DNA of 64,000 nucleotides from Phycisphaerae bacterium (lineage in GTDB: Bacteria; Planctomycetota; Phycisphaerae; UBA1845; Fen-1342). Below, piece by piece: positions 46,891 to 55,431 of the stretch. The stretch covers positions 64,001 through 128,000 of the forward strand of contig JASFQK010000014.1 of the NCBI GenBank assembly GCA_050115495.1, given 5' to 3'. How positions within the stretch are numbered: position 1 is the first letter of the stretch; each line of letters opens with the position of its first letter. The position numbers were made by a program, and so were the translations under genes. The notes beneath the pieces were generated by a model. The model did not search any database. It was not told the origin of the DNA and saw nothing but the letters and a program-made list of their open reading frames with translations.

Positions 46891-48867
46891 CTAGCGTGAG
46901 ATCAACTGCACGAACGGCCCAATGTCGAAGTTGTTGAGCTGGCCGTCCTCGTTGACATCACCGAACATCGGATCGCACTCCGGGTATTGCTCGGCGTAGC
47001 CCTCGGGGTTGGTCAGGGCCAGCACGAACGGGGCGATATCGAAGTTGTCGACGACACCGTCACAGTTCAGGTCGCCGGTGCCGGACAGCGTCGCGATGCA
47101 GCCCCACTGGCTGAGGCTGGTCGTCACCAGGTCAACGTTTCGCGCCATGACGCCGAAGCAGTAGGTTATTTCCGGCTGCAAGCCGTACACGACGAGGTCG
47201 TCCCAGTCGCCCAACTGCTGCCAGACGGCGTCTTCGTCATTCGTACCGGTGGCGTAACCGAGCTCGTCGATCCACTGACCGTCCATCGCCGGGTCGCCGG
47301 TGGTGTAGGCGCACTGGATGGCGAACTCGGTGGTGGCCGGGTTGCTGGCGGGATCGATCGTGACGGCGATCGTCTGGGCGCCGGTGGCGACAAGGGTCGG
47401 GCGGCCGGGGCGCATGGCCAGTGTGTAGGCCGAGGCCGGGTCGCTGTAGCCGGTCTCGTTGCCCGAGCCGTCACGCGCCTTGACCTCGTACGTGTAGGCC
47501 GTGTTGGGCTGGAGACCGGTATTGGCGTAGCCACGCGTGGGCTGCCAGCCGCTGTCGGCGCCGCCCGAGCCGCCGGAGACGAGGTGGAAGTAGTACTCGA
47601 TCGCGGGCGAACCGCTGTCCGAGGCCTCGACCGCACTCATGGTGACCTGCGTGTCGCTGGTCGCGGCCGGAAACAGTTCGAACTCCATCGGATCGGGCGT
47701 GGGCGGCGTCACATCGGCCGGGCCGAGAACGTTGAGGTAGAACTCGCCGGTCGCAGCATCGTTGCCGGCAACGCGGATGTAGTACGTCTCGGCCTCATAC
47801 ACGTCCACGTCCAGGCAGGACTGGAGGGAACCGACGTCGCAGATGTCGCTATCGTCGTTGCAGGCAAGCTGGTTGGCCGCAGTGCCCGGACACCCGGTGT
47901 GCACGGACAGGACGGTGTCCAGAGTTGAGCCGCAGGTGTCGAGGTAGAGCGTGCCGTCGGCCTTGGCGGTGTAAGTGTACCAGACGTCGGGGGAGGAGTT
48001 GGACGAGCCGCAACTGGCGGAGCCGTCATTGGTGGCGTCGCTGGTGTGGCCCTCTTCCGTGCCGTCCTCCACGTCGCGAGCGTCGGAGCAGTCGTCGGCC
48101 GGTCCCGAGGGCGGGAAGGGCCAGAGCATCGTATGCGACTGGAAGACTTCGGCGCGGTTGCTGGGTCCGCCGGTCGATTGGGGCTCCTGGGCCCAGATGA
48201 TGATCTTGATGTTGCTCTGGTGGGACCAGCTATACGAATCGAACGTGAACTGCCGCTCCACGGTCTGGCACTGACCGGGACTGAGGTAGATGTCCTGGGT
48301 GGCAGCGGCCTGCTTGAAGCCGTTGCGGCAATAGCTGGGGCTGGTCGGCCAGTGGTCGAGAACCTGCACCATGTAGATGCGCATGCTCTTGGCCGTGCCA
48401 CCGGCCTCCATGCAGATGGTGGCTTCGACGTTGTAGGTGGTGCCGCTGACGAAATCGCCGGTGGCGGTGATGATCACGTCCGTCGGCAGGACGGCTCGGC
48501 TGTTAAACTCGTTGTAGTAAAGGGCATACGTGTGGCTGCCGCTGTGCTTGACCGTACCGTCGAAGTAGGTCGTCGGATACCCGGTGGCATCCTGGTAGAA
48601 GCTCCAGCGGGCGTTGGCCCAGGAGGTTTCGTAGTCGTCGCCGCGGTGAATCTGGACAAACGAGAACGTGGTCGGGTAGTTCTCCATCAACTGGGCCAGG
48701 ATCGGGCCGGCCTGTGCGCAATAGCTGCACCAGGTCGCGGTGAATTCCTCCCCCAGCACTGTCCGCGTCGCTCCGGAGGCGGTTACGGGCATCGCTGCGA
48801 GAACCACGATCGCCAGGATCCCCCCGAGCCACAAGCTTCTCCGTGTGTAGCTACAACAGCCTTCCAT
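46891..48867 (-). CDS. Secreted thioredoxin-fold (CxxC)/Omp28-like multidomain protein with PPC-like, FN3-like and dockerin-like domains; Cys isoform
   Basis: Signal peptide; EEFTATWCSYC; GYPT cis-Pro-like motif; PDVWY..DTVLSV..CNDD; FN3 Y.Y.VKARD; dockerin; AAGGAG 6 nt before ATG 48867 (alternative 48873). Confidence 0.85.
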   Translation of the reverse strand: MEGCCSYTRRSLWLGGILAIVVLAAMPVTASGATRTVLGEEFTATWCSYCAQAGPILAQLMENYPTTFSFVQIHRGDDYETSWANARWSFYQDATGYPTTYFDGTVKHSGSHTYALYYNEFNSRAVLPTDVIITATGDFVSGTTYNVEATICMEAGGTAKSMRIYMVQVLDHWPTSPSYCRNGFKQAAATQDIYLSPGQCQTVERQFTFDSYSWSHQSNIKIIIWAQEPQSTGGPSNRAEVFQSHTMLWPFPPSGPADDCSDARDVEDGTEEGHTSDATNDGSASCGSSNSSPDVWYTYTAKADGTLYLDTCGSTLDTVLSVHTGCPGTAANQLACNDDSDICDVGSLQSCLDVDVYEAETYYIRVAGNDAATGEFYLNVLGPADVTPPTPDPMEFELFPAATSDTQVTMSAVEASDSGSPAIEYYFHLVSGGSGGADSGWQPTRGYANTGLQPNTAYTYEVKARDGSGNETGYSDPASAYTLAMRPGRPTLVATGAQTIAVTIDPASNPATTEFAIQCAYTTGDPAMDGQWIDELGYATGTNDEDAVWQQLGDWDDLVVYGLQPEITYCFGVMARNVDLVTTSLSQWGCIATLSGTGDLNCDGVVDNFDIAPFVLALTNPEGYAEQYPECDPMFGDVNEDGQLNNFDIGPFVQLISR

Positions 48868-48901
48868 CTCCATCTCCTTGAACGGTGTCCCAAAGCTGCT
48901 T

Positions 48902-49111: not shown

Positions 49112-51088
49112 CTAGCGCGAGATCAACTGCACGAACGGCCCAATATCGAAGTTATTGAGTTCACCGTCCTCGTTGATGTCGCCAAACAGGCGGTCGCAGT
49201 CTGGGTACCGCTCGGCGTAGCCCTCCGGGTTGGTCAGGGCCAGCACGAACGGGGCAATATCGAAGTTGTCGACGGTACCGTCGCAGTTCATGTCGCCGAG
49301 GCCGGACAGCGTCGCGGCACAACTCCACTGACTGAGACTGGTCATCACCATATCCACGTTCCGCGCTTTCACGCCGAAGCAGTACGTGATTTCCGGTTGC
49401 AAGCCGCGCACCGTGAGGGTGCCCCACGCATCCAACGACTGCCAGACAGCATCCTCGTCATTGGTCCCGTGGGCGTAGCCGAACTCGTCGATCCACTGGC
49501 CTTCCATCGCCGGGTCGCCGGTGGTGTAGGCGCACTGGATGGCGAACTCGGTGTAGGCCGGGTTGCTGGCCGGATCGATCACGAGGTCCATGTTCCGGCC
49601 GCTCAAGGGGGTGAGCGTCGGGCGACCGGGGCGCATGGCCAGCGTGTTAGCCGAGGCCGGATCGCTGTAGGCCGTCTCGTTGTCCGAGCCGTCGCGCGCC
49701 TTCACCTCGTAGGTGTAGGCCGTGTTGGGCTGGAGACCGGTGTCGATGTAGCCACGGTCGGGCTGCCAGCCGCTGTCGGTGCCACCCGACCCGCCGGAGA
49801 CGACGTGGAAGTAGTACTCGATGGCCGGTGAGCCGTTGTCCGAGGCCTCGACCGCACTCATGGTGATCTGCGATTCGCTGGTCGCGAACGGAAGCAGCTC
49901 GAACTCCATCGGATCGGGCGTGGGCGGCGTCACGTCGGCCGGGCCGAGCACGTTGAGGTAGAACTCGCCCGTCGCGCCGTCGTTGCCGGCGATGCGGATG
50001 TAGTACGTCTCGGCCTCATACACGTCCACCTCCAGGTAGGACTGGAGGGAGCCGGTGCCGCAGACGTCGCTGTCGTCGTTGCAGCCGAGCTCGTTGGCCG
50101 CGGTGCCCGGGCACCCGGTGTGCACGGACAGGACGGTATCCAGCGCCGAGCCGCAAGTGTCGACGATGAGCGTGCCGTCGGCCTTGGCGGTGTAGGCGTA
50201 CCACACGTCCGGGGACGAGTTGGACGAGCCGCAACTGGCCGAGCCGTCATTGGTAGCGTCATTGGTATGACCGTCTTCGGTGCCATCCTCGATATCGCGG
50301 GCGTCACTGCAGTTGTCCGCCGGTCCCGAGGGCGGGAAGGGCCAGAGCATGGTGTGCGACTGGAAGACCTCAGCGCGGTCGCTGGGTCCGCCGGTCGATT
50401 GAGGCTCCTGGGCCCAAATGATAATCTTGATGTTGTTCTGGTTGGCCCAACTGGTGCTGTCGAACGTGAACTGTCGTTCGACGGTCTGGCACTGGCCGGG
50501 GGTGAGGTAGATGTCCTGCGTCGTGGCGCCCTGCTTGAGCCCGTTGCGGTGGTAGTTGGGGCTGCTCGGCCAGTAGTCGAGCACCTGCACCATGTAGATG
50601 CGCATGCTCTTGGCCGTGCCACCGGACTCCATGCAGATGGTCGCCGTGACGTTGTACGTCGTACCGCTGATGTAATCACCGGTCGCCTCGATCAACACGT
50701 CGGTGGGGAGCACTTGGCGGCTGTGAAATTCGTTGTAGTAGAGGCTGTAAACGTGACTGCCGCTGTGCCGCACCGTGGCGTCAAAGAACGTGGTGGGGTA
50801 GCCGGTGAGGTCAACGTAGAAGTTCCACCGGGCATTACCCCAGCTCGTGCCGTAAGAGTCGTTGTAGTGGATTTGAACGAACGAGAAGGTGTTGGGATAG
50901 TTGTTGAGTAGTTGGCTTAAGACGGGACCCGCCTGAGAACAATAGCCTCAGCCGGTGTTGGTGAACTCTTCGCCCAGGACGACACGGGTAGCCCCGGAAG
51001 CCGTCATGGGCGTCGCTGCCACGAGCGCGGCGCCCAGGATCCCCCAGAGCCAGAGGCTTCTCCTTCGGTCGCTGCTACAGCCTTGCAT
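49112..51088 (-). CDS. Predicted selenoprotein: UxxC paralog of the adjacent gene, in-frame TGA at 50950-50948
   Basis: Reading through TGA gives MQGCSSDRRRSLWLWGILGAALVAATPMTASGATRVVLGEEFTNTG-U-GYCSQAGPVL..., collinear with and equal in length to the Cys paralog; SECIS-like hairpin follows. Confidence 0.88.
50914..50947 (-). promoter_or_regulatory. Bacterial SECIS-like stem-loop
   Basis: UGA-GGCUAUUGUUCUC-AGGCGG-GUC-CCGUCU-UAAGCC; G-led loop starts after 19 nt; basal GGCU/AGCC pairing. Confidence 0.75.
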
Positions 51089-51119
51089 CTCCATCTCCTT
51101 AAACAGTGTTTAGATGGCA

Positions 51120-51354: not shown

Positions 51355-52452
51355 ATGACGCCAGTCGCGACTGCGTCCGACGCCCCCTGCCGGCTCCTGG
51401 TCGTCGTCCCCAACTGGGTCGGTGACGTCGTGCTGGCCTCACCCACACTGGCCGCCCTCCGAGCCGGGATGCCCCGGGCGCGGATCACCTACCTCCTGCG
51501 GCGGTACGTCGGCGAGATCGTCGATGGCTGCGGCTGGCACGACGAGTGCGTCTACTGGTCCCAGCGCGGCGGCAAACGGGAGGGCGGGTTGCTCCGCCTG
51601 GCCGGCCGGCTGCGGGCCGGGCGCTTCGATCTGGCGGTGCTGCTGACGAACTCGTTCCGGTCGGCGTTGACGGTCCGGCTCGCCGGCATCCCCCGTCGAG
51701 TCGGCTACGCCCGGGAACTGCGGGGCTGGCTGCTGACGGACCGGCTCCGTCCGCTACGACGTGACGGCGTGTTCGTGCCGGCCAGCGTGCTCCCCTACTA
51801 CGCGAAGCTGGCCGAGCACGTGCGTTGCCCCGTGACCGATTACGGCCTGCGGCTGGCGGCCAGCCCCGAACAGCAGCGCCAAGGGGCGGCGCTCCTCGCC
51901 CACTACGGCCTGGACGACGGCCGGCCGTACGCCGTCGTTAACCCCGGGGCGAAGTTCGGCGCGGCCAAGTGCTGGCTGCCGGAGCGCTTCGCCGAGCTGT
52001 GCGACCGGCTGCACCGCGAGCACGATCTGCGGCCGGTCCTGGTCGGTAGCCCGGACGAGGCCCCCCTGATGCGGCAGATCGCCGAGGCGACGACCGAGCC
52101 CACCGTCTGCTGTGTTGAGCCGGGAACGACGCTCGGCTCGCTGAAGGTCGTGATCGGCGGGGCGGCCCTGCTCGTCTGCAACGACACCGGCCCGCGGCAT
52201 TACGGGCTGGCTTTCGGCGTGCCGACGGTCACGCTCTTTGGACCGACGCACCAGGAGTGGACAGACACCGGCTCTTCGGCTGAAATCAAGCTTCAGGTGT
52301 CCGTCGACTGCGGCCCGTGCCAGTTGCCCCGCTGCCCGCTCGACCACCGCTGCATGACCCGGCTGACCACCGACATGGTCATGCAGGCCGTGGCGGAGTT
52401 GCTCGGCCGCCGGGCCTCGGTTCCGTCGCCGACGGACGTGACGACGCATTGA
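51355..52452 (+). CDS. waaF: Lipopolysaccharide heptosyltransferase II (GT9)
   Basis: PNWVGDVV, NSFRSA, NPGAKFGAAKCW, NDTGPRH, LFGPT, C.PC..CP..H.CM. Confidence 0.9.
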   Translation: MTPVATASDAPCRLLVVVPNWVGDVVLASPTLAALRAGMPRARITYLLRRYVGEIVDGCGWHDECVYWSQRGGKREGGLLRLAGRLRAGRFDLAVLLTNSFRSALTVRLAGIPRRVGYARELRGWLLTDRLRPLRRDGVFVPASVLPYYAKLAEHVRCPVTDYGLRLAASPEQQRQGAALLAHYGLDDGRPYAVVNPGAKFGAAKCWLPERFAELCDRLHREHDLRPVLVGSPDEAPLMRQIAEATTEPTVCCVEPGTTLGSLKVVIGGAALLVCNDTGPRHYGLAFGVPTVTLFGPTHQEWTDTGSSAEIKLQVSVDCGPCQLPRCPLDHRCMTRLTTDMVMQAVAELLGRRASVPSPTDVTTH

Positions 52453-52463
52453 CTACCAGGGCC

Positions 52464-53390
52464 ATGGCCATGCCGGCAGTGGATTACATCAGTGTCGATC
52501 CCGCCTACCGCGAGGTGCTGCACGCCGCCGGGCTGACCTCGGTGGACAGCATCCTCTCGCGGTTGGACGGCGATGTGGCCGCCTGGAGCCGCAGCACCGA
52601 CACGCTGCATGTTCCCGGGCCCGCGGGCGGCCCCGGCTTCTACCTCAAACGCTACTACTACGCGACGTGGCGGAAACGCTTCCGAACGATGCTCCGCGGC
52701 ACGTTCTTCGGCGTACACCGCGGTGAGGCCGAGTATGCCGCGTTGCAGGCGATGCGGAACCTGGGCATTAACGCGGCGCGACCGGTCGCGTACGGAGCGC
52801 GGCGACTCGCCCATTTCGTCACGGCCTGCTTCCTCATCACCGAGGAAGTCCCCGGCAGCACCAACCTCACGACGTTCGCAAGTGACGTGGCGGCCGGGCG
52901 GCGAGCGCTGACCCGCGCCGAGCGGCTGGCGATGATCGCCCGCCTCGCCCGCCAGGTCACCGAGATGCACGCCGCCGGCTTCTGCCACGGGCAAATGTTC
53001 TGGCGGAACATCCTCGTTCGGCGGGGGCTCGACGGGCAGCCCGAGTTCTTCTTCCTCGACGCGCAGCCGCCGCCATCGTGGCGACGCGTGAGCCCCACCG
53101 CGGCGTGGTGGCACCGCGAACTGGCCAATCTCCTCATCTCCGCCCTGCCGTTCACGACGCGCACGGACCGGTTGCGTTTCCTGCGGCACTATCTCGGCGG
53201 CCGGCTCAAGCCCGAGATCAAGGCTCACGTCCACGCCATCGAGGCCTGCTCGCGGCAGTGGCACCGTCACGAGCTGCAACGCATCAAGATGAACGACCTC
53301 TTCGAACGCTGGCGGCGTCAGCTCGACCTGGAGCACACTCCCGCAGCTCAGACCGAGGTGAATGCGGCCCGCGACGGAGCGTCGCCTTGA
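52464..53390 (+). CDS. LPS kinase (Kdo/WaaP family)
   Basis: FYLKRY, E...L..M..LGI....VAYG, LITEE, HGQMFWRNIL, FFFLD. Confidence 0.8.
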   Translation: MAMPAVDYISVDPAYREVLHAAGLTSVDSILSRLDGDVAAWSRSTDTLHVPGPAGGPGFYLKRYYYATWRKRFRTMLRGTFFGVHRGEAEYAALQAMRNLGINAARPVAYGARRLAHFVTACFLITEEVPGSTNLTTFASDVAAGRRALTRAERLAMIARLARQVTEMHAAGFCHGQMFWRNILVRRGLDGQPEFFFLDAQPPPSWRRVSPTAAWWHRELANLLISALPFTTRTDRLRFLRHYLGGRLKPEIKAHVHAIEACSRQWHRHELQRIKMNDLFERWRRQLDLEHTPAAQTEVNAARDGASP

Positions 53391-54241
53391 CCTCCGGCCA
53401 GTGGACCGCCCCCGAGTGGGAGGACCGTCTGCGCCGGGCCGGTCTGAATGCCGCCACCGATCTGCTCGACCGCGCCCCCGATCAGCTTTCTCTCGCCGGC
53501 ACGTGCGAATTGTTGAGCAAGCCGGGTCTGGCCGAGCGGCAACGGTGGCGCTGGACGCTGCCCGAGGGCGATGCCGTTCTCTACATCAAGCGGTACGGCC
53601 GCGCACCGTCTCGCATGCAGTGGGACCGCATCGTCCGGCAGAGCTCCCGGCACAGCCGCGGCTGGTGGGAACACACGCAGGGCAAACGGCTCGCCGGGGC
53701 GTACGTGCCGGCGGCCGGCGCCGTCGCCTGCGCCGAACGCATGAACGGGCTGATCGAGCAGCGCAGCGTTGTCGTGCTGGCCGCCGTCGCCGGCGATGGT
53801 CTGGACCGTGTGTGGACGCGGCTGTCGGCGGAAGGCGCTCCACTGACACGCGGCCTGGCCCGGCACGATCTGGCCGTTCGCCTGGGACGCTTCGTCTCGG
53901 CGTTTCATCAGACCGGGTTGTGTCACCGCGATCTGTACCTGTGCCACGTCTTCGCCGAACTCGATCCGGCCGGCACCCGCCCGCCGACGTTCACGCTCAT
54001 CGACCTGGCGCGCACATTTCAGCCACGCTTGCGGCGGACGCGCTGGCTGCTAAAGGACCTGGCACAGCTCGACTGCTCGGCCCGGCAGGTCGGCGTGTAC
54101 CGCACGGATCGGCTGCGTTGCCTGCGGGCTTACCTGGGGCTGCAAACACGGGCCGCCCGGCTCCGCTGGTACGCTCGCCGGGTGCTACGCCGAAGTGACG
54201 CCATTCTGCGGCGCATCGCGAGGAAGAGTGCATTGGCATGA
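53387..54241 (+). CDS. LPS kinase (WaaP-like)
   Basis: TTGA overlap start; LYIKRY, HRDLYLCHV, LIDLAR, KDLAQL. Confidence 0.82.
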   Translation: MTSGQWTAPEWEDRLRRAGLNAATDLLDRAPDQLSLAGTCELLSKPGLAERQRWRWTLPEGDAVLYIKRYGRAPSRMQWDRIVRQSSRHSRGWWEHTQGKRLAGAYVPAAGAVACAERMNGLIEQRSVVVLAAVAGDGLDRVWTRLSAEGAPLTRGLARHDLAVRLGRFVSAFHQTGLCHRDLYLCHVFAELDPAGTRPPTFTLIDLARTFQPRLRRTRWLLKDLAQLDCSARQVGVYRTDRLRCLRAYLGLQTRAARLRWYARRVLRRSDAILRRIARKSALA

Positions 54242-55431
54242 AGGTCGCCATCGTCCAGGAGACTGTGGACGCGCGTCGCGGCGGTGCGGAGACGTCGACG
54301 CTGGAGATGGCCCGCGGACTGGCCAGCCTCGGACTCGACGTGAGCATTCTGTGCCGCGCGGCACCGCCGGATGTCGTCGATGAGCCGCGGCTGCGCGTGG
54401 TTCGGCTGCGGGCCGGCGGGCTGTCGCGGACGCTGCGGACGTTCAGCTTTCTCCGTGCCGTGCTTCGGCAGCGGCTCAGGGAGCACTTCGATATCATCCA
54501 CGCTGTCACGCCGTGCCTCGCGGCGAATGTCTATCAGCCGCGCGGCGGCACATACCATGAGACGATCGAACGCAACCTGGCCCTCATCGACTCGGATGGG
54601 CTGCGAGCTCTGAAGCGCTTCGCCTCGCATTTCAACCTACGCCGCCGGTTCCTGCTGAACATGGAAGAGACATTACTCCGCAAGCGTCGGCACCGCGTGT
54701 TCGTCGCCGCCCTGTCGGCGTACGTCCAGCGGCAGGTGATCGAAGGTTACGGCTTCCCCGCCGAACGCACGCCGATTGTGTTCAACGGCGTGGATATTGC
54801 GCCATTGTCGGATGAGGAGATCGGGGCAGCCTGCGTTGCTGTGCGGACGCGCCTGCACCTGGAGCCGAACACGCCGGTCGTGCTCTTCGCGGCGCACAAC
54901 TTCAAGCTGAAGGGGCTCGCTGAGCTGATACGGGCGTGGTCGCTGCCGGCCGCGGGGGCGACTGCGGGCCGCCATCTCATCGTCGCCGGCCGCGATCGAC
55001 AGGGCTCCTACCGCCGGCTCGCTAGCAAGCTGGGCGCGGCAGAGACGATCCACTTCGTCGGCGCCGATCTGCCAATCCGTGAGCTCTACGCTGGCGCGGA
55101 TGCGCTGGCTCATCCGACTTGGTACGACCCGTGCTCGCGCGTCGTGCTCGAGGCGCTTTCGCTGGGCCTGCCGGTCGTCACGACTCGCCACAATGGGGCC
55201 GCGGAGGTCATGCAGGCGGACCATCATGGCGTCGTCGTGGAGAGTGCGGCGGACGTGCCGGCGCTGGCGGCGGCGATCGACCGCGTGCTGGATCCGGGCG
55301 TCCGGGCAGCATGTTGGGCAGACGCGGAACGCTTGCGGGAGCAGGTGTCGATGGCGCGGCACGTCCGAGAACTGCGCCAGCTCTACACGACCGTCGTCGC
55401 CACGGAGAGACAACGGCTTCGGGAGCGGTAA
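54238..55431 (+). CDS. GT4 glycosyltransferase (WaaG-like)
   Basis: GGAE, NGVD, NFKLKG, HPTWYDPCSRVVLEA..GLPVVTT; ATGA overlap. Confidence 0.9.
   Translation: MKVAIVQETVDARRGGAETSTLEMARGLASLGLDVSILCRAAPPDVVDEPRLRVVRLRAGGLSRTLRTFSFLRAVLRQRLREHFDIIHAVTPCLAANVYQPRGGTYHETIERNLALIDSDGLRALKRFASHFNLRRRFLLNMEETLLRKRRHRVFVAALSAYVQRQVIEGYGFPAERTPIVFNGVDIAPLSDEEIGAACVAVRTRLHLEPNTPVVLFAAHNFKLKGLAELIRAWSLPAAGATAGRHLIVAGRDRQGSYRRLASKLGAAETIHFVGADLPIRELYAGADALAHPTWYDPCSRVVLEALSLGLPVVTTRHNGAAEVMQADHHGVVVESAADVPALAAAIDRVLDPGVRAACWADAERLREQVSMARHVRELRQLYTTVVATERQRLRER

What the first reader, a model, noticed from the sequence alone, without database searches (positions are those of the whole stretch)
49112..51094. 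Hidden secreted selenoprotein (UxxC thioredoxin/Omp28-like domain with dockerin tail)
Seen: the track starts this gene at 50773, but the frame continues upstream through a single TGA (50950-50948) to AAGGAG-ATG-GAG-ATG with a full signal peptide. The TGA aligns exactly with the first Cys of the neighbour's motif (EEFTNTG-U-GYC vs EEFTATW-C-SYC). Both genes span 1983 nt from the first ATG, with no other stop or frameshift. Established: UxxC in thioredoxin folds is the commonest bacterial selenoprotein motif. Inference: a ~660-aa exported, multidomain, dockerin-tailed selenoprotein, an unusual location and architecture that gene callers would truncate or call a pseudogene. I cannot confirm novelty without a search.
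Basis: partly seen in the sequence, partly recalled or inferred. Interest (0 to 1): 0.95.

Follow-up and report, generated by a model that had tools for sequence, protein, structure and literature searches.

The report
Unannotated secreted thioredoxin-like selenoprotein gene
A gene that annotation cuts short at a TGA codon almost certainly encodes an exported redox protein with selenocysteine in its active site; it is a new branch of a selenoprotein superfamily that has been predicted since 2008.

Summary
On the minus strand, 51094..49112 is one 660-codon frame with a single in-frame TGA (50950-50948). That TGA aligns with the first Cys of the CxxC motif in the tandem paralog 48873..46891 (81% identity, no gaps).

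The selenocysteine reading is strongly supported:
- The genome has selA, selB, tRNA-Sec and a selD that itself carries TGA.
- Of 70 homologous loci from related Phycisphaerae genomes, 38 have TGA at exactly this codon, 31 have Cys, 1 has Ser, and none has a stop elsewhere in the domain.
- A 5-bp hairpin with a GGU loop lies 18 nt after the TGA. It is intact in 35 of 38 Sec forms and 6 of 32 Cys/Ser forms, with compensatory changes at wobble positions.
- Codons upstream of the annotated start are under purifying selection.

The N-terminal module is a thioredoxin fold plus beta-sandwich. Its closest solved structure is P. gingivalis HBP35. PPC-like, FN3 and dockerin-like domains follow.

Novelty is modest. 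The closest curated family, NCBIfam NF045500 ("Omp28-related selenoprotein", GOS_C of Zhang & Gladyshev 2008), is a known UxxC selenoprotein family, but this protein scores far below its cut-off. It is best filed as a new Phycisphaerae member.

The parts
49112..51094 (-). Full selenoprotein CDS: 660 codons plus TAG, with Sec at codon 49. The likely true start is the second ATG at 51088.
   Evidence: single TGA, otherwise an open frame; 81% identity, without gaps, to the paralog over the full length; pN/pS 0.29 in codons 1-107.
51095..51100 (-). AAGGAG Shine-Dalgarno-like hexamer, 6 nt before the second ATG.
   Evidence: Read directly. The same AAGGAGATGGAGATG stands before the paralog.
50993..51094 (-). 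Signal-peptide-like N-terminus (residues 1-34): an RRR n-region, a hydrophobic core, and an A-S-G | A cleavage-like site.
   Evidence: Read from the sequence. Homologs all have a hydrophobic N-terminus ending in small residues just before the conserved (D/E/T)R-V-V-L. The AF2 model gives a low-confidence helix at 13-26. No dedicated predictor was run, so this is an inference.
50948..50950 (-). TGA codon 49, the selenocysteine codon (U of UxxC).
   Evidence: 38 of 70 homologous loci have TGA here, 31 have TGC/TGT and 1 has AGC. It aligns to the first Cys of the thioredoxin WCGPC motif.
50939..50941 (-). TGT codon 52, the resolving Cys of UxxC.
   Evidence: C52 is nearly invariant. It is replaced by Asp in a small UxxD subgroup.
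50920..50934 (-). bSECIS core hairpin: 5-bp stem AGGCG/CGUCU and loop GGUCC, with 18 nt between the UGA and the loop.
   Evidence: 85 of 85 cells are paired in 17 Sec forms, 3 of 5 pairs show compensatory change, and RNAalifold finds the same helix; intact in 35 of 38 Sec forms against 6 of 32 Cys/Ser forms; the 40-nt element folds at -9.7 kcal/mol; it meets the published bSECIS constraints.
50333..50992 (-). Omp28/HBP35-like module (residues 35-254): thioredoxin fold (about 37-127) plus beta-sandwich (about 130-250).
   Evidence: AF2 pLDDT 91.8. HBP35 (5Y1A), E 5.7e-11, TM 0.66; thioredoxins, E 4e-6. NF045500 at 39 bits, under its cut-off. Omp28 clusters.
49940..50317 (-). Cys-rich PPC / galactose-binding-like domain (residues about 260-385).
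   Evidence: GBD_T9SS_assoc 25.2 bits (cut-off 27) and PPC 16.6 bits (cut-off 25.9). Both are under their cut-offs.
49310..49927 (-). Two fibronectin type III-like domains (residues about 390-595).
   Evidence: fn3 27.4 bits (cut-off 25), two stretches.
49115..49309 (-). Dockerin-like double EF-hand tail (residues 596-660).
   Evidence: Dockerin_1 E 0.0018, 18.9 bits, under the 22.9 cut-off. PF00404 is on record for some homologs.
46891..48873 (-). Tandem Cys paralog (CSYC) with the same architecture. It lacks the GGU-loop hairpin.
   Evidence: It is sister to the Sec copy in the tree, with support 99.

Best explanation
**What the gene is.** The gene at 51094(51088)..49112 (minus strand) is a real selenoprotein gene.

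**How the TGA is decoded.** UGA at codon 49 is decoded as selenocysteine by the genome's own SelA/SelB/SelD/tRNA-Sec system. Decoding is directed by a small bacterial SECIS hairpin that lies inside the coding sequence, 18 nt downstream. The hairpin has a 5-bp stem and a GGUCC loop, and it is built from the codons for the conserved (Y)-A-G-x-A-L peptide.

**The product.** It has several parts:
- a cleavable signal peptide;
- an Omp28/HBP35-like module: a thioredoxin fold carrying the U49-x-x-C52 redox pair at the N-terminus of helix 1, packed against a beta-sandwich;
- a Cys-rich PPC-like domain;
- two FN3 domains;
- a Ca-binding dockerin-like tail.

**Proposed function (inferred).** The protein is exported and held at or outside the cell surface by its tail. 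There it acts as a thiol/selenol-disulfide oxidoreductase, with the selenolate of U49 as the attacking nucleophile and C52 as the resolving residue. This mirrors Cys48/Cys51 of the cell-surface thioredoxin-like protein HBP35.

**The Cys paralog.** The tandem Cys paralog is a sulphur isoform of the same enzyme.

**Shown and inferred.**
- Shown by computation: the TGA and its position, the Sec machinery, the Sec/Cys distribution among homologs, the covarying hairpin, purifying selection and the fold.
- Inferred: export, surface anchoring, the substrate, and actual Sec insertion.
For: **Sec machinery in the same genome**
- selD scores 367 bits (cut-off 125). It has its own TGA at the known G-U-x-x-K site.
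- selA scores 532 bits.
- selB scores 302 bits.
- tRNA-Sec has anticodon TCA.
- TGA is an ordinary stop in 4 of 7 genes in the window, so there is no genome-wide recoding.

**Position of the TGA**
- It aligns with Cys49 of the paralog.
- It aligns with the first Cys of the thioredoxin WCGPC motif.

**Comparative evidence**
- In one search, 27 of 61 genomes had matches. By my count of the 78 match rows, 38 carry exactly one TGA.
- After all of these were fetched, 70 distinct loci cover the site: 38 TGA, 29 TGC, 2 TGT and 1 AGC. None has a stop elsewhere in the domain.

**SECIS hairpin**
- In 17 Sec forms, 85 of 85 cells are paired.
  - 3 of 5 pairs show compensatory change.
  - The covariation score is 0.368 against 0.114 for shuffles (0 of 500 reach it).
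  - Slid controls pair in 22-49% of cells.
- RNAalifold finds the same helix.
- The strongest covarying pair joins two third-codon positions.
- 35 of 38 Sec forms have 5 of 5 pairs and a loop starting GGU. Among Cys/Ser forms the figure is 6 of 32 for each measure.
- GGT makes up only 48 of 342 Gly codons in seven genes of the window.
- The element meets the published bSECIS constraints on loop, stem, G position, spacing and MFE.

**Selection**
- pN/pS is 0.29 in codons 1-107, upstream of the table-11 start, the same as over the whole gene.

**Fold and function**
- The AF2 model has pLDDT 91.8.
- The best PDB match is HBP35: E 5.7e-11, TM 0.66 over 244 columns.
- HBP35 has measured thioredoxin activity that is lost in the C48S/C51S mutant (passages of PMC2907840).

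**Sequence data**
- An RNA-library contig from another study spans the SD/ATG, the TGA and the hairpin with no differences.
Against: - There is no protein-level evidence of selenium here or for any member of this branch.
- Folding energy of this sequence alone does not differ from shuffles: z is -0.42 and -0.43.
  - The Cys paralog forms an even more stable hairpin at about the same place, but without G in the first loop positions.
  - The SECIS call therefore rests on comparison, not on energy.
- The related genomes are kin, so the counts and the Fisher test overstate independence.
- The protein misses the curated cut-offs of NF045500 (39 of 200 bits), Omp28 NF033782 (18 of 150) and Dockerin_1 (18.9 of 22.9).
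- RNA-library contigs may be carried-over DNA, and contigs cannot show transcript ends.
- The signal peptide was judged by eye, not by a predictor.
- Neighbouring genes (a helicase and LPS-core enzymes) give no functional context.
- The substrate is unknown.
Confidence: 0.88

Rival explanations
1. Pseudogene: a nonsense mutation (TGC or TGG to TGA) inactivated one copy of a tandem duplicate, and the Cys neighbour carries the function.
For: A Cys paralog stands next door. A single base change suffices. Gene callers treat the gene as truncated.
Against: - 38 of 70 homologous loci across many genomes have TGA at this very codon, and none has a stop elsewhere.
- pN/pS is 0.29 on both sides of the TGA.
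- The hairpin is conserved and covaries in Sec forms only.
- There are no frameshifts or further stops in 660 codons.
Confidence: 0.03
2. The annotated model is right. Translation ends at TGA, giving a 48-residue peptide, and a separate N-terminally truncated protein starts at an internal GTG/ATG. That protein would lack the signal peptide and the active site.
For: Table 11 gives a 553-aa ORF from GTG 50773, and a 533-aa call is on record.
Against: - The internal start would cut the thioredoxin fold in the middle of the domain modelled at pLDDT 91.8.
- The upstream 107 codons are under purifying selection and are colinear with the paralog.
- The SD sequence and signal peptide stand at the upstream ATGs.
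Confidence: 0.03
3. The UGA is read through, but by a near-cognate tRNA (Trp or Cys) or by suppression rather than by Sec-tRNA.
For: UGA is the leakiest stop codon (established knowledge). Trp precedes the Cys in many homologs (the WC motif).
Against: - A complete Sec system is present, and selD is itself a selenoprotein.
- A hairpin that meets the bSECIS constraints sits at the correct spacing and is conserved only in the TGA forms.
- The TGA alternates with Cys at a redox-active site, which is the classic Sec/Cys pattern.
Confidence: 0.03
4. Sequencing or assembly error: the true codon is TGC or TGG.
For: The genome is a metagenome-type assembly of 85 contigs.
Against: - The TGA is read without difference in a DNA contig at word depth about 21. 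This is run X1, possibly the source sample, so it is not independent.
- It is also read without difference in a contig of an RNA library from another study, X2.
- The same codon is TGA in 37 other loci.
Confidence: 0.01

Closest known systems
NCBIfam NF045500 'Omp28-related selenoprotein', which is 'Hypothetical protein GOS_C' (Zhang & Gladyshev 2008, PMC2398784; Table 1 of PMC13188914)
   Same: - It is a predicted bacterial selenoprotein with a UxxC motif in a thioredoxin-like fold.
- It has many Cys homologs and a bSECIS-like element after the UGA.
- Its function is unknown (passages read).
- Both window proteins match the model over the N-terminal module: profile positions 33-256 for the Sec gene and 32-188 for its Cys paralog, E 5e-10 and 3e-9.
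   Different: - The scores are 39 and 37 bits against a cut-off of 200.
- No genome of 301 Planctomycetota searched reaches the cut-off.
- The C-terminal part of the model matches thrombospondin-type repeats, not the PPC/FN3/dockerin-like domains found here.
- I could not see the model's Sec column, so I assume the U is at the same position from the motif; I have not shown it.
HBP35 of Porphyromonas gingivalis (PDB 5Y1A)
   Same: - It is the best structural match to the two-domain N-module: E 5.7e-11, TM 0.66, 244 columns.
- It is a secreted cell-surface protein with a CxxC pair at residues 48 and 51.
- Thioredoxin activity was measured and is lost in the C48S/C51S mutant. The gene complements an E. 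coli dsbA mutant (PMC2907840, passages).
   Different: - It has Cys, not Sec.
- Sequence identity is only 13%.
- It carries a type IX secretion C-terminal domain rather than FN3 and dockerin-like domains.
- It binds haemin. Nothing here suggests haem binding.
Omp28 family (Pfam PF11551; NCBIfam NF033782)
   Same: The language-model and structure look-alikes of the N-module are mostly Omp28-annotated clusters, from Bacteroidota and other phyla. Many have surface-sorting tails. There is a weak NF033782 match around the active site.
   Different: - There is no PF11551 match at E <= 0.01.
- NF033782 scores 18-24 bits against a cut-off of 150.
- There is no lipoprotein Cys after the signal peptide.
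Other exported bacterial selenoproteins: DsbA-like, DsbG-like and thiol:disulfide interchange selenoproteins, and periplasmic MccSep
   Same: - The first three carry UxxC in Trx-like folds predicted to work outside the cytoplasm (Table 1 of PMC13188914).
- MccSep is a signal-peptide-bearing periplasmic selenoenzyme whose gene was also split by annotation at the UGA (bioRxiv 10.1101/2025.11.18.688581, passages).
   Different: These are different families and folds. None of them has the FN3/dockerin-like surface architecture.

Membership tests
Bacterial selenoprotein gene (Sec-decoded UGA) | A single in-frame UGA in an otherwise open, conserved frame | tested here: met
Bacterial selenoprotein gene (Sec-decoded UGA) | selA, selB, selC and selD present in the genome | tested here: met
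   All protein models score over their curated cut-offs. tRNA-SeC (anticodon tca) is found by ARAGORN and by Rfam RF01852 (66.7 bits).
Bacterial selenoprotein gene (Sec-decoded UGA) | UGA aligns with Cys in homologs, and with UGA in homologs of other Sec-using genomes | tested here: met
   of 70 loci, 38 have TGA, 31 Cys and 1 Ser at one codon. Sec and Cys forms are interleaved on the tree, which needs at least 18 changes (6 forced by well-supported branches).
Bacterial selenoprotein gene (Sec-decoded UGA) | bSECIS element: loop of 3-9 nt, stem of at least 4 bp, G in the first two loop positions, 16-37 nt from the UGA, MFE <= -7.5 kcal/mol (legend of Fig 2 in PMC13188914) | tested here: met
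   The element has a 5-bp stem, a GGUCC loop and 18-nt spacing, and folds at -9.7 kcal/mol. Covariation is shown. bSECISearch itself was not run.
Bacterial selenoprotein gene (Sec-decoded UGA) | Selenium demonstrated in the protein | not testable with these tools
   This needs 75Se labelling or mass spectrometry.
NF045500 Omp28-related selenoprotein (GOS_C) | HMM score at or above the curated cut-off (200 bits) | tested here: not met
   39.3 bits for the Sec gene and 36.7 bits for its Cys paralog. The best hit in this genome is the C4 paralog at 82.9 bits.
NF045500 Omp28-related selenoprotein (GOS_C) | UxxC motif in a thioredoxin-like fold | tested here: met
Thioredoxin fold | C/UxxC at the N-terminus of helix 1 after strand 1, a conserved cis-Pro loop, and a match to solved thioredoxins | tested here: met
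   - strand 39-45, U49, helix 52-65.
- P100 is invariant before strand 101-104. That it is a cis-Pro is inferred.
- thioredoxins match at E 4e-6 with the active sites aligned.
- Pfam PF00085 is under its cut-off, at 19.6 of 23.5 bits, and matches only the Cys paralog.
Omp28 (PF11551 / NF033782) | Family HMM match and a lipoprotein signal | tested here: not met
   No PF11551 hit at E <= 0.01. NF033782 scores 18.3 bits against a cut-off of 150. There is no lipobox Cys. The resemblance is only at the level of fold and features.
Dockerin type I (PF00404) | Pfam gathering score, and two Ca-binding EF-hand-like repeats | tested here: inconclusive
   18.9 bits against 22.9, E 0.0018, covering profile positions 1-49 of 57. 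Two D-x-N/D-x-D-G-x-x-x-N-x-x-D-like repeats are visible in the sequence.

The most novel reading that the evidence does not exclude
Phycisphaerae may run an unrecognised extracellular selenium-dependent redox system built on this Omp28-like U/CxxC module.

- **Electron supply.** In some paralogs the Sec module is fused, through thrombospondin-type repeats, to multihaem c-type cytochromes. This was seen in 3 of 4 long Sec forms examined. This genome has the Cys version on contig 4. Haem chains could therefore feed electrons to the selenol/thiol site.
- **Role of this gene.** Dockerin-tailed forms like this one would be docked at the cell surface as the terminal reductase. Possible substrates are disulfides, polysulfide or oxidised selenium/sulfur species outside the cell.
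- **The tandem pair.** The Sec/Cys pair has a mosaic divergence pattern. The thioredoxin core is near-saturated at silent sites, while the rest of the gene is homogenised. On this reading the pair is a maintained isoenzyme pair, selenium-replete and selenium-limited, analogous to the Sec/Cys hydrogenase pairs of methanogens. That analogy is from recall.
Probability: 0.15. Interest if true: 0.7.

Novelty: new member of a known kind. Interest (0 to 1): 0.42.

Why it matters
**Annotation.** This is a clear case, backed by 37 further TGA-bearing loci, of a selenoprotein that standard annotation truncates. Public records name the homologs 'hypothetical protein', 'thrombospondin type 3 repeat-containing protein' or 'multiheme c-type cytochrome'. 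The curated selenoprotein model NF045500 does not reach these proteins. The selenoproteome of Phycisphaerae is therefore probably undercounted.

**Biology.**
- The thioredoxin-fold selenoprotein superfamily extends into secreted, surface-anchored multidomain proteins of Planctomycetota.
- Sec and Cys forms switch unusually often: at least 18 changes on a 70-leaf tree.
- Sec/Cys copies sit in tandem.
- The fusions to multihaem cytochromes suggest what the electron donor of these otherwise function-less 'GOS_C-like' proteins may be.

**Limit.** None of this overturns known principles. UxxC in a thioredoxin fold with a GGU-loop bSECIS is the textbook bacterial pattern.

Tried and rejected
- **The search for related loci with the 34-row alignment A3.** A smaller alignment, A4, worked.
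- **Wrong-frame coordinates.** One search used them; one search corrected them.
- **First dN/dS script.** It failed on saturated dS and was redone with proportions.
- **NF045500 across 301 Planctomycetota genomes.** No true member was found to compare the Sec column with.
- **Literature searches.**
  - 'Omp28' with 'selenoprotein': 0 papers.
  - 'Phycisphaerae' with 'selenoprotein': 1 unrelated paper.
  - The BSepDB paper's main text mentions neither Planctomycetes nor GOS_C. Its database and supplements were not seen and may already list these genes.
- **Gene neighbourhood.** The neighbours are a DinG-like helicase, a heptosyltransferase, a Kdo/WaaP kinase, a GT4 enzyme and a DUF3466 protein. 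They give no functional link.
- **Single-sequence folding energy.** It does not separate the SECIS region from shuffles or from the Cys paralog.
- **Laid runs.**
  - X3, a DNA run from a third study, matched other parts of the gene without differences but has no contig over the TGA.
  - X4 has only a small share of the words.
  - The uncovered parts of the RNA runs say nothing.
- **Tat export.** I considered it because of the RRR in the n-region. I rejected it as unsupported, because homologs have KR, QR or no Arg pair there.
- **Earlier notes of this scan.** Look-ups by place and by sequence returned nothing.
- **Complex prediction.** Not used, because the report claims no binding partner.
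Full report
**Observation.**
- The minus-strand frame from ATG 51094 to TAG 49114-49112 is open for 660 codons, except for one TGA at 50950-50948, codon 49.
- Table 11 yields only a 553-aa ORF from GTG 50773. The public protein collection holds an even shorter 533-aa call of this gene (P0010).
- Upstream the sequence reads AAGGAG-ATG-GAG-ATG. The second ATG (51088) has the usual spacing from the AAGGAG. The Atlas record of the paralog starts at that residue.
- The neighbour 48873..46891 has the same length and 537/660 identical residues without a gap. It has Cys where this gene has TGA...TW-C-SYC against ...TG-U-GYC.

**Is the TGA selenocysteine? The machinery.**
- The window's genome has 85 contigs and is 92% complete.
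- It encodes selD (367 bits, cut-off 125), selA (532 bits, cut-off 268) and selB (302 bits, cut-off 242).
- It also encodes a tRNA-Sec: Rfam 66.7 bits, and ARAGORN calls tRNA-SeC with anticodon tca.
- selD itself has an in-frame TGA at the known G-U-x-x-K site, followed by a hairpin. The organism therefore already makes at least one selenoprotein.
- TGA ends 4 of 7 genes in the window, so it is not reassigned genome-wide.

**Is the TGA selenocysteine? Homologs.**
- A six-frame search of 60 related genomes with the Cys paralog's N-terminal 254 residues found matches in 27 of 61 genomes, counting this one.
- By my count of the 78 match rows, 38 carry exactly one TGA, 39 carry none, and one weak fragment carries a TAG.
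- I fetched the loci and located the stops by tblastn.
- Seventy distinct loci cover the active site. Of these, 38 have TGA, 29 TGC, 2 TGT and 1 AGC at the same codon. None has a stop anywhere else in the domain.
- This genome alone has four paralogs of the module:
  - the window pair, one Sec and one Cys;
  - a second TGA form on contig 3;
  - a Cys form on contig 4, fused to multihaem cytochrome domains.
- On a maximum-likelihood tree of 70 modules (37 with TGA, 33 without; quick search, SH-aLRT support only), Sec and Cys forms are interleaved.
  - At least 18 changes are needed, 6 of them forced by well-supported branches.
  - The window pair are sisters with support 99.

**SECIS.**
- In an alignment of 17 Sec forms anchored at the UGA, a 5-bp helix closes a 5-nt loop that always begins GGU. 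It lies 18 nt after the UGA, or 21 nt in forms with one extra codon.
- 85 of 85 cells pair, and 3 of 5 pairs show changes on both sides.
- The covariation score is 0.368 against 0.114 +/- 0.032 in shuffles (0 of 500 reach it). Sliding the 3' partner drops pairing to 22-49%.
- RNAalifold predicts the same five pairs on its own.
- The best covarying pair joins the third position of the Ala codon (GCC/GCG/GCU) to the third position of the variable codon two places on. The compensation is therefore at silent or near-silent sites, and points to RNA structure rather than protein constraint.
- In all 38 Sec forms, 35 have 5 of 5 pairs and 3 have 4 of 5. The loop starts GGU in 35 of 38.
- Scored the same way, 32 Cys/Ser forms have 5 of 5 pairs in 6 cases and GGT in 6 cases. 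In the 17-row tool count, 65.9% of their cells pair.
- GGT is a minority Gly codon here: 48 of 342 in seven genes of the window.
- The window's element (50934-50920: AGGCG / GGUCC / CGUCU) meets the published bacterial SECIS constraints on loop size, stem length, G position, 16-37 nt spacing and MFE <= -7.5 kcal/mol. The constraints are from the Fig 2 legend of PMC13188914. The 40-nt fold gives -9.7 kcal/mol.
- Against this, the energy is no better than shuffles (z about -0.4). [quoted passage not shown] The related genomes are not independent samples.

**Selection and sequence data.**
- Between the two window paralogs, pN/pS is 0.29 in codons 1-107. The annotated model leaves these codons untranslated. 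Over the whole gene it is also 0.29, with omega about 0.22.
- The TGA is read unchanged in a DNA contig of run X1, which may be the source sample.
- It is also read unchanged in a 209-nt contig (50896-51104) of a metatranscriptome library from a different study, X2. That contig spans the SD/ATG, the TGA and the hairpin.
- Contigs in an RNA library do not prove transcription.

**What the protein is.**
- A model of residues 1-254, built on a 34-row alignment, has pLDDT 91.8 and pTM 0.85.
  - It shows a signal-like helix, a thioredoxin fold (strand 39-45, U49, helix 52-65) and a beta-sandwich at about 130-250.
  - P100 is invariant before strand 101-104, as expected for the cis-Pro loop. That it is a cis-Pro is inferred.
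- A profile of the family matches solved thioredoxins (E 4e-6) with U49 aligned to the first Cys of WCGPC.
- The best structural match to both subdomains is HBP35 of Porphyromonas gingivalis: 5Y1A, E 5.7e-11, TM 0.66, 244 columns. Next is Atu2684 (2AXO).
- HBP35 is a secreted cell-surface protein.
  - Its recombinant form reduces insulin better than E. coli thioredoxin.
  - It loses that activity in the C48S/C51S mutant.
  - It complements a dsbA mutant (passages of PMC2907840).
- Language-model and structural look-alikes in the ESM Atlas are mostly Omp28-annotated clusters with surface-sorting tails, from several phyla.
- Downstream domains:
  - a Cys-rich PPC/galactose-binding-like domain, under the Pfam cut-offs;
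  - two FN3 domains (27.4 bits, cut-off 25);
  - a dockerin-like tail (18.9 bits, cut-off 22.9).
- I therefore read the product as an exported, surface-held thiol/selenol-disulfide oxidoreductase. Export, anchoring and substrate are inferences.

**Relation to what is known.**
- NCBIfam NF045500, 'Omp28-related selenoprotein', matches both window proteins over the N-module. The scores are only 39 and 37 bits against a cut-off of 200.
- No genome of 301 Planctomycetota searched reaches the cut-off.
- Table 1 of a 2026 review equates NF045500 with 'Hypothetical protein GOS_C', UxxC (PMC13188914; table passages read).
- The original paper reports 74 Sec and 312 Cys sequences in the GOS data, a Trx-like fold, a SECIS-like element and no known function (PMC2398784; passages read).
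- Exported bacterial selenoproteins are also on record:
  - DsbA-like, DsbG-like and thiol:disulfide interchange selenoproteins (same table);
  - periplasmic MccSep, whose gene was likewise split by annotation.
- The kind of thing is therefore known. What is new is the branch.
  - The 21 loci found in named genome records are all Planctomycetota MAGs, most of them labelled Phycisphaerae or Phycisphaerales.
  - The relatives in the protein collection are named only 'hypothetical', 'thrombospondin type 3 repeat-containing' or 'multiheme c-type cytochrome'.
  - Two searches of the held literature found nothing on it.
- The BSepDB database and its supplements, which I could not see, may already list these genes.
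- Earlier notes of this scan describe the same superfamily in three other genomes and name the same closest family. These are AI notes, not independent evidence.

**Verdict.**
- The selenoprotein reading is right, with probability about 0.9.
- It is a new Phycisphaerae member of a known UxxC thioredoxin-fold selenoprotein superfamily and not a new kind of system.
- Three side observations deserve follow-up more than the single gene does: the cytochrome fusions, the UxxD subgroup, and the mosaic Sec/Cys tandem pair.

Noticed in passing
L117 (G003:C189), L119 (G054:C1), L120 (G031:C324); Cys version in this genome at G000:C4:106092 onward (L025): In 3 of 4 long Sec forms examined, the Sec-bearing Omp28-like thioredoxin module is fused to a multihaem c-type cytochrome region through thrombospondin type 3 repeats. 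The cytochrome region matches Cytochrome_C554, Paired_CXXCH and MtrC/MtrF-like domains. Many Cys and truncated versions are in the protein collection. I found no description of such a fusion in the papers read.
   Followed up: partly
window 46891-48873 against 49112-51094 (minus strand): The divergence between the tandem paralogs is mosaic. Third-codon-position identity is 0.33-0.53 in codons 31-150, the thioredoxin core that carries U/C. It is 0.80 in codons 1-30 and 0.60-0.93 from codon 151 onward. pS is 0.82 in codons 37-107 against about 0.3-0.45 elsewhere. This suggests gene conversion of the flanks around two long-separated Sec and Cys cores, or a swap of the core.
   Followed up: partly
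L024 (G000:C3:61833-62555), L083 (G020), L101 (G009), L088 (G023): A subgroup of TGA forms has Asp instead of the resolving Cys (U-x-x-D), mostly with one extra residue before the conserved YAG. Three of them keep the GGU-loop hairpin. The fourth, L088, has a CGU loop and 4 of 5 pairs. It may be a single-selenol variant of the active site.
   Followed up: no
window about 51195-51175 and 48975-48955 (minus strand), upstream of both paralogs: A conserved block, ATTGAGTACGCT(A/G)TCTCA, and a GCAACC motif lie about 80-125 nt upstream of both start codons, in intergenic DNA that otherwise aligns poorly. They may form a shared promoter or regulatory site.
   Followed up: no
L098 (G005:C77:10600-13900); G028:C196; G054:C1:69877-71681; G019:C37: Tandem arrays of two or three module genes that mix Sec and Cys forms recur in other genomes. 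One example is Sec-Cys-Sec in G005. The Sec/Cys pairing in the window is therefore a recurring arrangement.
   Followed up: partly
G000:C36:5956-6891 (L001): selD of this genome is itself a selenoprotein. Its TGA stands at the G-U-x-x-K site, and a hairpin follows about 24 nt downstream.
   Followed up: yes
window 51355-55431 (plus strand): An LPS-core-type gene set lies divergent from the selenoprotein gene: a GT9 heptosyltransferase, a Kdo/WaaP-family kinase and a GT4 glycosyltransferase.
   Followed up: no
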